Shown here in pieces: positions 36,001 to 39,000 of a stretch of DNA of 64,000 bases. Each line of letters opens with the position of its first letter. The stretch's first letter is position 1. The position numbers are program-made. Source of the stretch: Escherichia coli (GTDB taxonomy: Bacteria; Pseudomonadota; Gammaproteobacteria; Enterobacterales; Enterobacteriaceae); assembly GCF_050920415.1 (NCBI RefSeq), contig NZ_CP169309.1, one strand, 5' to 3'.

Positions 36001-39000
36001 TAGACAGCCAGCGTGGGCAAATCGCCATCGGTTGGTTGATTGTGGAAGACCTGGTCATGGTTCTGACGCTGGTATTGCTGCCCGCAGTAGCAGGAATGAT
36101 GGAACAGGGTGATGTGGGCTTTGCCACTCTTGCAGTCGATATGGGGATCACCATCGGCAAGGTGATCGCATTTATCGCCATTATGATGCTGGTAGGTCGC
36201 CGTCTGGTGCCGTGGATTATGGCACGCAGCGCGGCAACCGGTTCCCGCGAGCTGTTTACCCTGTCGGTGCTGGCGCTGGCGTTAGGGATTGCCTTTGGTG
36301 CGGTAGAGCTGTTTGATGTCTCCTTCGCACTCGGTGCGTTCTTTGCCGGGATGGTACTGAACGAGTCTGAACTGAGTCACCGTGCTGCCCACGATACGCT
36401 GCCATTGCGCGACGCGTTTGCGGTGCTGTTTTTTGTCTCCGTCGGAATGCTGTTTGATCCGTTAATTCTGATTCAGCAACCACTGGCGGTGCTAGCGACG
36501 CTGGCGATTATTCTGTTTGGTAAGTCATTAGCCGCGTTTTTCCTGGTGCGACTGTTTGGTCACTCTCAACGTACGGCATTAACTATCGCCGCCAGCCTGG
36601 CGCAAATTGGTGAGTTCGCTTTTATCCTGGCGGGGCTGGGGATGGCGCTGGATCTGCTGCCGCAGGCCGGGCAGAACCTGGTGCTGGCAGGGGCAATCCT
36701 GTCGATTATGCTTAACCCGGTGCTGTTCGCGCTGCTGGAGAAATATCTGGCGAAGACCGAAACGCTGGAAGAGCAGACGCTGGAAGAGGCAATCGAAGAA
36801 GAGAAGCAGATCCCAGTGGATATTTGCAACCATGCGCTACTCGTTGGCTATGGTCGTGTAGGCAGCCTGCTGGGGGAGAAATTGCTCGCCTCTGATATTC
36901 CTTTAGTGGTGATTGAGACGTCACGTACTCGCGTCGATGAGCTGCGCGAGCGCGGGGTCCGCGCAGTATTGGGCAATGCGGCGAACGAAGAGATCATGCA
37001 ACTGGCGCATCTGGAATGTGCAAAATGGCTGATCCTGACGATTCCCAACGGTTATGAAGCGGGCGAGATTGTGGCGTCTGCCCGCGCGAAAAATCCGGAT
37101 ATTGAGATTATTGCCCGCGCCCATTATGACGATGAAGTGGCGTATATCACCGAACGTGGCGCGAATCAGGTAGTGATGGGTGAGCGTGAAATTGCCCGAA
37201 CTATGCTGGAACTGCTGGAAACGCCACCGGCGGGTGAAGTGGTGACGGGGTAAGACATTGATTTCATTGCCGGATGCGATGCTGGCGCATCTTATCCGGC
37301 CTACAGGTGCCACCTTCCGAAGGTCGGATAAGGCGTTTATGCCGCATCCGACTGTCATTGCCGGATGCGATGTTGACACATCTTATCCAGCCTACAGGTG
37401 CCATCTTTCGTAGGTCGGATAAGGCGTTTATGCCGCATCCGACTGTCATCAGTCCGATAACTTAACGATCCCAGTAAGACTCTTCCAGACTGTCTTCACG
37501 CTCCGGTAAGCCGCGCGTTAAACGAGGTGAATGCTGGTTCAGTACCTGATAGCTCACACGGTTAGCATATTTACACACCTGCGCTAATGACGAATACGTT
37601 AACCAGGTGAATTTATGTTTGCTGGAGTTTGGTACGTTGCTACGGTGGTAGCTGTTGGCGGTAATGTCATGCAGCAATGCTGCCAGTGCGCCATCCCCCG
37701 CTCCGTTAGTGTTCATGATTTTTTCCGGCCCGCCCATGTACGGCGCAATGTGCGAATAGACACGCAACGGATTCTGACAATCCTTGTGGCGCATGGCGCG
37801 GCTAAACTCATACTGGTTAAATTCCGCGATAGCGCCCGGCAGCAGCGGATGCTGGGTTTTGCGTTTCGCTTCGTCTTCGGTAAAGCCCGCCATATACAAG
37901 CCGATTGGTCCGGCGGTACACAGCACCAGATCAACCCAGTCCAGCGCCTTGTCAGATGCCAACAACGGATCGCTTTCTCCGGTCAACGCTTCGGCCTCAT
38001 CTTCGTTCATCGCAAGGATAGAGACGTGATCTTTGAGGAATTGCTGCCACCACTGCGGATTCTCGGCAATGACAAACTTGGTGCCCAGCGTCAGCACCAC
38101 CGGTACGTTATATTTCTTCGCGTACTCAATGGCTTTCATGGTTGCTTCCGGCATGGGTTCACCCGGCTTGCAACGCACCAGATAAGAAGTGAGAACCAGC
38201 GCCGAGGCTCCGGCAATCACATCTTCCGGAATACTTTCAGCCCGCAGCTGGTTCATGTGGCCAGGGCTGATAGCAAAGGTACGTTCCCCGGACTCGCCAA
38301 TCAGCGTAAAGCAACGACCAATCGGGCCATCCACGCCTTGTAGATAGTTAAGATCGGTACGGCTGGAGGTGTTACATAGGTAACGATAGGCATAGCTGCC
38401 AATTTCAATATTGCTGCACATGACGCCCAGCAGCACCGAACGGTCGTCCGCGAGCACCGAGTAGTTGTGCATGGTGTTACCAATAGTGCCACCCGCAAAT
38501 TGATGGGTAATCAGGTTTTTCTGTTTCAGCTCCTGATAAAGTGCTTCGGCAACATCATCCTCAATCACCAGTGAATGCCCGGCGCTTAATCCATAACGCT
38601 CAATGAACTCATCATCCACTTTCGCTTCAATATCGACCAGCGTTTGATCGATACCCACTACCCAGGCAGCGCTGGTTTCGTTTTCTGGCTGGAATTGCTG
38701 AAGCAGCGGATCTCGTGCGTTTACGGGAAAATAATGTTTGGATTTACGTTTGCCGGGAAATTTCATGGTTGTTTTTACGGGTGGTTAACTGAGCGGCGAA
38801 TGTTAACACAATCTGACGGGAGCGCGCGAGACGCAGCCAGTTTCAATATCAGCAGGCGGGATCGCATTTTCATGGCAGTGGTTCCTTACAATGACGTAAT
38901 TTGAAAGGAGTTTTTGCATGAAGCCGGAAAACAAATTACCCGTTCTGGACCTTATTTCTGCTGAAATGAAGACCGTTGTGAATACTCTTCAGCCGGATTT

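What the first reader, a model, noticed from the sequence alone, without database searches (positions are those of the whole stretch)
37269..37443. REP/BIME clusters at two convergent or terminal gene junctions
Four alternating REP units lie between ybaL and gsk, and two between ybaM and mscK (48731-48828). They are typical E. coli extragenic palindromes, support the species assignment, and are distinct from the unclassified GC-rich element in the copA-ybaP spacer.
Basis: seen in the sequence. Interest (0 to 1): 0.2.

Follow-up and report, generated by a model that had tools for sequence, protein, structure and literature searches.

The report
Ordinary REP/BIME repeats between convergent genes
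These are six copies of the well-known E. coli "REP" hairpin repeat, sitting in two clusters between genes that end facing each other; they are real and correctly identified, but ordinary, and only the four-copy arrangement at the first site is uncommon among E. coli strains.

Summary
The 64-kb window holds exactly six REP units. Four alternate in orientation (+ - + -) at 37269-37443 between ybaL and gsk. Two (+ -) lie at 48731-48828 between ybaM/rsmS and mscK. Chance would give about 0.7 matches.

Locus 1 is a BIME-2-like array: a 91-bp unit (z2-like REP, 14-nt linker, y-like REP) duplicated in tandem at 92% identity. It passes Rfam's gathering threshold for naRNA4, whose model is a REP Y+Z2 pair. 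Locus 2 is a textbook BIME-1: z1, a 35-nt L linker with an IHF-like site, then y. It has the same arrangement as in K-12.

Three caveats apply.
- K-12 carries a different, oppositely arranged REP pair at ybaL-gsk. The four-REP allele occurs in only 15 of 5,426 complete E. coli genomes, which include the source strain's nearest relatives.
- The BIME-1 is also present at the same site in E. albertii, E. whittamii and other Escherichia. REPs therefore support the genus, not the species.
- K-12's own five-REP BIME-2 plus ybaQ downstream of copA is replaced in this window by the non-REP GC-rich repeat.

The likely roles are taken from the literature: 3'-UTR hairpins protecting mRNA, gyrase or IHF sites, and substrates of the TnpA-REP transposase.

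Verdict: already known, low interest.

The parts
37264..37449 (.). Tandem array: 2.0 copies of a 91-bp BIME unit, 92% identical, filling most of the 208-bp ybaL-gsk spacer (37254-37461)
   Evidence: the repeat finder D1; Tandem Repeats Finder period 91, 2.0 copies, 92% matches, score 323
37269..37304 (+). REP unit 1. It is 36 nt with a z2-type length and upper stem but a GCCGGAT/ATCCGGC foot. CTAC lies at 37301-37304. It starts 15 nt after the ybaL stop codon.
   Evidence: Hairpin -21.5 (+ strand RNA) and -22.0 (- strand RNA) kcal/mol. Aligns to the z2 half of Rfam naRNA4.
37305..37318 (.). 14-nt tail-to-tail linker AGGTGCCACCTTCC (short, S-like)
   Evidence: read from sequence
37319..37352 (-). 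REP unit 2. It is 34 nt, y-type, with a GTCGGAT/ATCCGAC foot. The GTAG tetranucleotide is degenerate (GAAG at 37319-37322).
   Evidence: Hairpin -17.7/-17.6 kcal/mol. Aligns to the y half of naRNA4.
37353..37359 (.). 7-nt head-to-head linker TGTCATT. It is 6 nt shorter than the 'l' linker in the naRNA4/REP325 consensus.
   Evidence: Rfam alignment
37360..37395 (+). REP unit 3, a z2-like copy of unit 1. It has a C-A mismatch in the foot (CCAGCC), so the hairpin is weaker on the + strand.
   Evidence: -12.8 (+) and -17.8 (-) kcal/mol.
37396..37409 (.). 14-nt tail-to-tail linker AGGTGCCATCTTTC
37410..37443 (-). REP unit 4, y-type, with an intact GTAG at 37410-37413. It ends 18 nt before the gsk stop codon.
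   Evidence: -17.7/-17.6 kcal/mol.
37322..37392 (+). Full-length match to Rfam RF02564 naRNA4 (a REP Y + linker + Z2 pair), covering units 2 and 3
   Evidence: 63.1 bits against a gathering score of 59.5, E 4.5e-9
48731..48759 (+). REP unit 5, 29 nt, z1-type: GCCTGATGCGCTACGCTTATCAGGCCTAC
   Evidence: Hairpin -13.2 kcal/mol. Identical in K-12.
48760..48794 (.). 35-nt L linker of the BIME-1. It holds an IHF-consensus-like site, ATTCAATATATTG, at 48770-48782 (-), with 1 mismatch to WATCAANNNNTTR.
   Evidence: Identical in K-12. The IHF pattern on its own is not enriched in the window (45 found against 37.8 expected).
48795..48828 (-). REP unit 6, 34 nt, y-type, with GTAG at 48795-48798. One stem position differs from K-12 (GGAGAAG against GGATAAG).
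   Evidence: Hairpin -21.5/-17.4 kcal/mol.
48687..48705 (+). Left copy of a G/C-clamped hairpin (GGGGCCGCTAAATGTCCCC) preceded by an A-rich run. On the - strand it reads as the terminator-like hairpin plus T-run for mscK.
   Evidence: the repeat finder D1; alignment to the O157 'empty' allele
48859..48880 (+). Right copy of the same hairpin (GGGGCAACTAAATGTCGCCCCC) followed by TTTGGTTATT. It is the terminator-like hairpin for ybaM/rsmS, placed after the BIME.
   Evidence: Conserved in other Escherichia species.

Best explanation
Both sites are members of the enterobacterial REP (palindromic unit) repeat family, organised as BIMEs.

Locus 1 (37264-37449) is a BIME-2-like array. A 91-bp unit is duplicated in tandem: a z2-like REP, a 14-nt linker, an inverted y-like REP and a 7-nt linker. 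This gives four REPs in alternating orientation. Locus 2 (48731-48828) is a single BIME-1, made of z1, a conserved 35-nt L linker with an IHF-type site, and an inverted y.

Shown here: the identity of the units, their anatomy, their hairpin potential, conservation of the stems through compensatory changes, their position in the 3' intergenic spacers of convergent genes, and variation in copy number and allele between strains.

Inferred from published work on the family, not tested here:
- Both spacers are transcribed as 3' UTRs. The REP hairpins (-13 to -22 kcal/mol each) impede 3'-to-5' exonucleases and attenuate read-through. The ybaL-gsk spacer has no intrinsic terminator, so the REPs are its only structured 3' element.
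- The first REP begins 15 nt after the ybaL stop codon. That is exactly the published limit (<=15 nt) for REP-induced ribosome stalling, so ybaL translation may be damped. gsk (18 nt), ybaM (53 nt) and mscK (60 nt) lie outside the limit.
- At the DNA level, the y units of the BIME-2-like array are likely gyrase binding and cleavage sites between two converging transcription units. The BIME-1 L linker is likely an IHF site.
- The units originate from, and are amplified by, the REP-associated Y1 transposase (TnpA-REP/RAYT) and by slippage or recombination. This would account for the 1-, 2- and 4-REP alleles seen at this locus.
For: Motif: 6 tails against 0.68 expected, each with an exact head. 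No further REPs in the window.

Structure: every unit folds into the canonical bulged hairpin on both strands, from -12.8 to -22 kcal/mol, with z-scores of -2.0 to -5.1. The whole spacer gives z -6.1 on the + strand and -7.4 on the - strand. Across 10 REP units, 96.7% of stem cells pair, against 24-54% when the partner columns are slid. Two stem positions show two-sided compensatory changes: C-G to U-A, and G-C to U-A or A-U.

Family: Rfam naRNA4 (Y-l-Z2 of REP325) scores 63.1 bits, above the gathering score of 59.5. The definitions of y/z1/z2, GTAG, BIME-1 (z1+y, L linker, IHF site, single copy) and BIME-2 (z2+y, short linkers, tandem copies, copy number varying between strains) come from PMC3333891.

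Locus 2 has the same arrangement as the K-12 element, differing at 3 positions within it.

Tandem duplication: 91 bp x 2.0 copies at 92% identity. Alleles with 1 REP (GPEC1356), 2 REPs (AR_0077) and 4 REPs (window, N96) exist at the same site.

Dispersed family: the two queries hit 4 and 22 places in the source chromosome, and 32,016 and 125,855 places across 5,425 genomes, by megablast alone.

No intrinsic terminator was found in 37000-37700.

Literature for function: gyrase cleavage is enriched in BIME-2 and prefers y units (PMC6379681). About 80% of REPs are transcribed, and Y+Z2 RNA binds HU (PMC4550694). REPs within 15 nt of a stop codon stall ribosomes (Liang 2015, as cited in PMC12306157). 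TnpA-REP binds and cleaves REPs and needs both the GTAG and the stem mismatch.
Against: Nothing found contradicts the REP/BIME identity. There are several limits.
- No expression, gyrase, IHF or transposase data exist for this strain, so every functional step is by analogy.
- The z2-like units carry a y-type foot (GCCGGAT rather than GCCTGAT), and the head-to-head linker is 6 nt shorter than in REP325. Strictly, locus 1 is a variant or 'atypical' BIME rather than a canonical BIME-2.
- Unit 2 has GAAG in place of GTAG and unit 3 has a stem mismatch. Some units may therefore no longer be TnpA-REP substrates.
- The IHF consensus match has 1 mismatch and is not statistically informative on its own.
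- The 15-nt spacing to the ybaL stop codon is exactly at the published boundary, so the translational effect could go either way.
Confidence: 0.95

Rival explanations
1. Locus 1 is a dedicated small-RNA gene, an naRNA4-like nucleoid-associated RNA that bridges DNA cruciforms together with HU, rather than a passive REP array.
For: A full-length Rfam RF02564 hit lies above the gathering score at 37322-37392(+). Published naRNA activity needs only an RNA with two hairpins of the Y and Z2 type (PMC4550694).
Against: The naRNA4 model is itself a REP Y+Z2 pair, so any BIME-2-like array is expected to match it. The hit shows family resemblance, not orthology to REP325 (yjdM-yjdN). No promoter-like site lies in the spacer. 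The linker is 6 nt shorter than in the model and the margin over the threshold is only 3.6 bits.
Confidence: 0.1
2. The palindromes are simply Rho-independent terminators of the convergent genes, not members of a repeat family.
For: They sit exactly where terminators are expected, between convergent genes, and they form stable hairpins.
Against: No hairpin in the ybaL-gsk spacer is followed by a T-run, and the scan found 0 terminator-like sites. The same 29-36-nt sequences recur at many unrelated loci and match the y, z1 and z2 consensus types. At locus 2, separate G/C hairpins with A- or T-runs flank the BIME and are the better terminator candidates.
Confidence: 0.03
3. The spacer encodes small proteins. 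ORFs of 61 aa (37264-37449, - strand) and 63 aa (37274-37465, + strand) span the array.
For: Both ORFs are open and start with ATG.
Against: Neither has a Pfam match. RefSeq annotates no gene there in the source strain. The ORFs are made up entirely of repeat sequence, and most E. coli strains carry a different spacer.
Confidence: 0.01

Closest known systems
BIME-2 (tandem y + z2 REP arrays of E. coli, e.g. REP325 between yjdM and yjdN, the sucC-sucB array, and the copA-ybaQ array of K-12)
   Same: Alternating inverted REPs of a 34-nt y class and a 36-nt z2 class. Short linkers. Tandem repetition of the pair. Location in the 3' spacer of genes. Copy number that differs between strains. Passes the Rfam naRNA4 (Y-l-Z2) threshold.
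   Different: The z2-like units have a G/C at the fourth stem pair, which is a y-type foot. The y-like units have a U-A at the second pair (GTCGGAT...ATCCGAC). The head-to-head linker is 7 nt, against about 13 nt. Only two copies are present. One GTAG is mutated to GAAG.
BIME-1 / RIP / RIB elements (z1-L-y with an IHF site)
   Same: Locus 2 has a 29-nt z1, a 35-nt L linker with ATTCAATATATTG, and a 34-nt inverted y, present once. It has the same arrangement as the K-12 ybaM-mscK element, differing at 3 positions within it, and is conserved across Escherichia species.
   Different: Nothing substantive. One stem base in the y unit differs from K-12 (T to G at 48803).
K-12 ybaL-gsk REP pair
   Same: Same intergenic site, same convergent genes, and also a z2 + y-like pair.
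   Different: Opposite layout: z2(-) then y-like(+), joined head-to-head by a 12-14-nt linker, with a GCCAGAT/ATCTGGC foot and a 132-bp spacer. The intergenic sequences cannot be aligned with each other outside the REP cores.
REPINs and RAYT-associated REP doublets of Pseudomonas
   Same: Inverted REP doublets thought to be mobilised by a domesticated Y1 transposase.
   Different: A different sequence family and host genus. No RAYT gene was looked for or found in this window.

Membership tests
REP / palindromic unit (E. coli y, z1, z2) | An imperfect palindrome of 30-40 nt (z1 is slightly shorter) able to form a stem-loop | tested here: met
   The units are 29-36 nt. Hairpins range from -12.8 to -22 kcal/mol on both strands.
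REP / palindromic unit (E. coli y, z1, z2) | A conserved GTAG (CTAC on the other strand) at the foot of the palindrome | tested here: met
   Present in 5 of 6 units. Unit 2 has GAAG.
REP / palindromic unit (E. coli y, z1, z2) | A conserved internal mismatch or bulge in the stem (GC opposite TT), which TnpA-REP requires | tested here: met
   GATGCG...CTTATC is invariant in all 10 aligned units. G9-U26 is a wobble pair and C10/T25 are unpaired.
REP / palindromic unit (E. coli y, z1, z2) | Extragenic location, typically 3' of genes | tested here: met
   Both clusters lie wholly between the stop codons of convergent genes.
REP / palindromic unit (E. coli y, z1, z2) | High copy number, dispersed around the genome | tested here: inconclusive
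   Megablast, which needs 28-nt exact words, finds 4 and 22 places in the source chromosome and a median of 6 and 19 per genome. This is consistent with a dispersed family, but no full census of the source genome was possible.
REP / palindromic unit (E. coli y, z1, z2) | Stem maintained by compensatory substitutions between subtypes | tested here: met
   Two pairs show two-sided changes. 96.7% of cells pair, against 24-54% in the slid controls. The sample is small (10 units) and was hand-picked.
BIME-1 | One z1 and one y in inverse orientation, separated by the conserved long L linker, present as a single copy | tested here: met
   48731-48759 is z1, 48760-48794 is L and 48795-48828 is y. Same arrangement as the K-12 element, differing at 3 positions within it.
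BIME-1 | The L linker binds IHF | not testable with these tools
   Only a 1-mismatch consensus match at 48770-48782 is available, and it is not significant on its own.
BIME-2 | y and z2 REPs alternating in tandem copies with short linkers | tested here: met
   91-bp unit x 2. Rfam Y-l-Z2 model scores 63.1 bits, above 59.5. However, the z2-like units have a y-type foot and the linker is shorter, so this is a variant or 'atypical' BIME.
BIME-2 | Preferential DNA gyrase binding and cleavage | not testable with these tools
   Literature only (PMC6379681).
REPtron / RAYT-associated REPs | A cognate tnpA-REP (RAYT) gene in the genome that binds and cleaves these REPs | not tested
   The gene is not expected in this window (in K-12 it lies elsewhere), and the source genome could not be searched with a protein.
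naRNA4 (Rfam RF02564) | A discrete HU-bound RNA transcribed from REP325 (yjdM-yjdN) | tested here: not met
   The sequence and structure match the model, but the locus is ybaL-gsk, not yjdM-yjdN. No promoter-like site was found in the spacer. It resembles the family but is not the same gene.

The most novel reading that the evidence does not exclude
The ybaM-mscK BIME-1 sits between two direct copies of a terminator hairpin about 20 nt long. The left copy keeps only the A-run and the right copy keeps only the T-run. About 1,500 E. coli genomes are 170 bp shorter here; the one read (O157:H7 TB21-1) has a single A-run, hairpin, T-run bidirectional terminator instead, and E. coli E69 has a different GC-rich palindromic element in the same slot. 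Read most boldly, REP/BIME-type elements would insert into, or next to, terminator hairpins and duplicate the hairpin, creating a reusable 'slot'. That would be a footprint of the still-unknown REP insertion mechanism.
Probability: 0.08. Interest if true: 0.45.

Novelty: already known. Interest (0 to 1): 0.08.

Why it matters
It matters little beyond correct annotation. REP and BIME elements have been known for about 40 years, and the BIME-1 here has the same arrangement as K-12's.

There are some practical uses:
- The 61- and 63-aa ORFs over the array should not be called as genes.
- The Rfam naRNA4 hit should be read as 'REP Y+Z2 pair', not as the naRNA4 gene.
- REP content is a poor species marker within Escherichia.
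- The ybaL-gsk spacer is a multi-allelic BIME site with 1, 2 or 4 REPs, a K-12-type pair, or a two-ORF insertion. It could serve as a lineage marker, or as a small natural series for testing how REP number and REP-to-stop spacing affect ybaL and gsk expression.

Tried and rejected
- **K-12 annotation.** I looked for REP 'repeat_region' features in the K-12 RefSeq record. The local feature table lists only CDS and ncRNA there, so K-12's REP numbering could not be used.
- **Liang et al. 2015.** I tried to read PMC4427526, but it is not held. The 15-nt rule is cited second-hand from PMC12306157.
- **IHF consensus scan.** It gave 45 matches against 37.8 expected, so the site in the L linker is supported by context only. 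An exact match at 37251-37263(-) overlapping the ybaL stop codon is probably chance.
- **Terminator scan.** It found nothing in the ybaL-gsk spacer. At locus 2 it found only intragenic hits. The flanking hairpins were missed because their loops are 11 nt.
- **Pfam.** The two ORFs over the array, and the two 'hypothetical' genes inserted at this site in strain 2013C-4282, gave nothing above threshold.
- **Rfam on the copA-ybaP GC-rich element.** It gave only a sub-threshold TwoAYGGAY hit, 30.2 bits against 43.
- **Hairpin pair as a target-site duplication of the BIME-1.** I considered this and largely rejected it. The 25-nt and 30-nt sequences between the hairpins and the BIME are conserved even where the BIME is replaced (E69). 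The filled arrangement is shared by E. albertii and E. whittamii. The O157-type single hairpin is therefore more likely a secondary deletion or allele replacement than an ancestral empty site.
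Full report
**What is in the sequence**

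The 208-bp spacer between the stop codon of ybaL (+ strand, 37251-37253) and that of gsk (- strand, 37462-37464) contains four units of 34-36 nt. Each has the head GYCKGATGCG and the tail CTTATCMGRCCTAC.

A search for the tail with up to 2 mismatches finds six sites in the whole 64-kb window, against 0.68 +/- 0.89 in shuffles. Four are at 37291-37423, alternating + - + -. Two are at 48746-48808, oriented + and -. The less specific head motif matches exactly only at the six partner positions.

The units are 37269-37304(+), 37319-37352(-), 37360-37395(+), 37410-37443(-), 48731-48759(+) and 48795-48828(-). A profile HMM of REP units finds nothing else in the window; the next hit has E = 0.26.

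**Anatomy of locus 1**

- The four units are two tandem copies of a 91-bp unit (37264-37354 and 37355-37445) at 92% identity.
- Each copy holds a 36-nt unit with the length and upper stem of the z2 class, but a GCCGGAT/ATCCGGC foot. A 14-nt tail-to-tail linker follows, then an inverted 34-nt y-class unit with a GTCGGAT/ATCCGAC foot. A 7-nt head-to-head linker joins the two copies.
- All units fold into the canonical bulged hairpin on either strand, at -12.8 to -22 kcal/mol.
- The whole spacer folds far better than shuffles, with z = -6.1 on the + strand and -7.4 on the - strand.
- I aligned the six window units with four units from other alleles. The foot and first upper-stem pair are paired in 96.7% of cells, against 24-54% when the partner columns are slid. 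Two positions change on both sides (C-G to U-A; G-C to U-A or A-U). This is the expected signature of a structure-constrained repeat family, although the sample is small and hand-picked.
- Rfam independently places units 2 and 3 in RF02564 (naRNA4), full length, at 63.1 bits against a gathering score of 59.5. That model is the Y-linker-Z2 repeat of REP325 (PMC4550694). The hit therefore means 'BIME-2-type REP pair', not the naRNA4 gene.
- Two units show decay. Unit 2 has GAAG instead of GTAG, and unit 3 has a C-A mismatch in the foot.
- No intrinsic terminator or promoter-like site lies in the spacer.

**Anatomy of locus 2**

The sequence reads GCCTGATGCGCTACGCTTATCAGGCCTAC (z1), then a 35-nt linker containing ATTCAATATATTG, which has one mismatch to the IHF consensus, then an inverted y unit. 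This meets the published definition of BIME-1: z1 + y, a conserved L linker that often carries an IHF site, and a single copy (PMC3333891). K-12 has the same arrangement at the same junction, differing at 3 positions within the element.

**Comparison with other genomes**

The window is 100% identical to E. coli MFDS1022581 (NZ_CP169399.1). All other complete E. coli genomes are 95-99% identical in the adk-htpG region, and the nearest is N96 at 99.0%. Its mscK is 95.7% identical to K-12's and less similar to the other Escherichia species representatives.

K-12's 132-bp spacer holds a different pair, z2(-) then y-like(+), arranged head-to-head, and it cannot be aligned with the window outside the REP cores.

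Only 16 of 5,426 genomes cover the window's spacer. Fifteen have the four-REP array and one (AR_0077) has a single copy. The closest adk-htpG relatives listed all carry this allele.

Other alleles at the site:
- one REP (GPEC1356, 83-bp spacer);
- the K-12 type, which is the large majority (about 33 of 40 evenly spaced hits);
- a two-ORF insertion of about 760 bp (2013C-4282).

Such locus-specific variation in BIME copy number between strains is already described.

At locus 2, 3,881 of 5,426 genomes carry the BIME-1. The rest are 170 bp shorter; the one read (O157:H7 TB21-1) has a single bidirectional terminator hairpin. A scan of GTDB species representatives found the same BIME-1 at the same junction in E. 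albertii, E. whittamii and Escherichia spp. E1V33 and MOD1-EC7003.

**How it most likely works**

Shown here: identity, structure, position and polymorphism.

Inferred from the family's literature:
- The arrays are transcribed as 3' UTRs of the convergent genes, and the hairpins hinder 3'-exonucleolytic decay and read-through (background).
- BIME-2 y units are preferred gyrase cleavage sites (PMC6379681). That role is plausible between two converging transcription units.
- The BIME-1 linker binds IHF.
- REPs are substrates of TnpA-REP, which needs the GTAG and the stem mismatch. This predicts that unit 2 is inactive.
- REP1 starts 15 nt after the ybaL stop codon, exactly the published limit for ribosome stalling. 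gsk (18 nt), ybaM (53 nt) and mscK (60 nt) are outside it.

**Rivals**

- A dedicated naRNA gene, about 0.1 confidence. The Rfam hit is explained by family resemblance.
- Plain intrinsic terminators, about 0.03. No unit in the ybaL-gsk spacer is followed by a T-run (no terminator-like site in the scan), and the sequences are repeated across the genome.
- Small-protein ORFs of 61 and 63 aa, about 0.01. They have no Pfam hit and no annotation.

**The GC-rich element**

In K-12 that spacer instead holds a five-REP BIME-2 plus ybaQ. In the window both are replaced by a GC-rich repeat of about 240 bp, present about three times per genome and, in a K-12-like strain (Sel(hit)), found between yohP and dusC.

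**Verdict**

The finding is real, correctly interpreted, already known and of low interest. The only mildly unusual points are the rarity of the four-REP allele, the non-K-12 layout at ybaL-gsk, and the duplicated terminator hairpin that brackets the BIME-1.

Noticed in passing
window 48687-48705 and 48859-48880; L004 (O157:H7 TB21-1); L010, L013-L015: The BIME-1 is bracketed, at a spacing of 172 bp, by two direct copies of a G/C-clamped hairpin about 20 nt long. The left copy keeps only the upstream A-run and the right copy keeps only the downstream T-run, so each convergent transcript must cross the BIME before reaching its terminator-like hairpin. About 1,545 E. coli genomes are 170 bp shorter; the one read (O157:H7 TB21-1) has one A-run, hairpin, T-run bidirectional terminator. 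The bracketed arrangement is conserved in E. albertii, E. whittamii and two other Escherichia species.
   Followed up: partly
L012 (E. coli E69, CP089930.1), about 100-300 nt upstream of the mscK stop codon: Between the same pair of hairpins and the same short flanks, this genome has no BIME-1. It carries a different GC-rich palindromic element of about 120 bp (arms CCCCCTCGCCC...GGGTGAGGG / CCCCTCACCC...GGGCGAGGGG). The slot has therefore been reused by another repeat family.
   Followed up: no
window 28982-29409 (copA-ybaP spacer); L016 3082-3875 (K-12); L017 1501-1738: K-12 has a five-REP BIME-2 array plus the ybaQ gene between copA and ybaP. The window lacks both and instead carries a GC-rich repeat of about 240 bp (about 29058-29290). 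That repeat occurs a median of 3 times per E. coli genome, is unannotated, and in a K-12-like strain (Sel(hit), NZ_CP152468.1) lies between yohP and dusC. The only Rfam signal is a sub-threshold TwoAYGGAY hit (30.2 bits against 43) at 29126-29265(-).
   Followed up: partly
whole window; The window is identical to E. coli MFDS1022581 (NZ_CP169399.1; animal-source food, South Korea). No other of 5,426 complete E. coli genomes reaches 99% in the REP-bearing regions. At adk-htpG the nearest is N96 at 99.0%, then about a dozen at 98.3%. mscK is only 95.7% identical to K-12's. The strain belongs to a sparsely sampled, rather divergent lineage.
   Followed up: partly
L007 (E. coli 2013C-4282, NZ_CP027579.1) 454-1422: In this strain (and in WL297) the ybaL-gsk spacer is 969 bp. 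It carries two 'hypothetical protein' genes (150 and 98 aa, no Pfam family) inserted at the first REP. After them comes a degenerate second copy of the ybaL 3' end plus a REP pair, which suggests acquisition by recombination from a diverged donor.
   Followed up: partly
window 37264-37449 (-) and 37274-37465 (+): ATG-initiated ORFs of 61 and 63 aa run through the REP array on both strands. They are artefacts of the repeats: they have no Pfam hit and are not annotated in RefSeq. In K-12-derived records, 'yahH' is annotated over a REP of the same kind (H55).
   Followed up: yes
window 37251-37263 (-): An exact match to the IHF consensus WATCAANNNNTTR (AATCAATGTCTTA) overlaps the ybaL stop codon, just upstream of REP unit 1. 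The pattern is at chance frequency in the window, so this is probably coincidental.
   Followed up: no
L011 (E. coli SCPM-O-B-8794), last about 190 nt of the locus: At the ybaM-mscK junction of this genome, the y unit and part of the L linker are present, but the z1 unit is replaced by unrelated sequence. This may be an insertion or a rearrangement at the REP. The locus ends too soon to tell.
   Followed up: no
window 45367-45431 (-), 30203-30286 (-), 62236-62332 (-): Rfam gathering-level hits match the K-12 gene order in the part of this region that was checked: the DnaX frameshift element, sroB/ChiX sRNA (between ybaK and ybaP) and the small SRP RNA (ffs).
   Followed up: no
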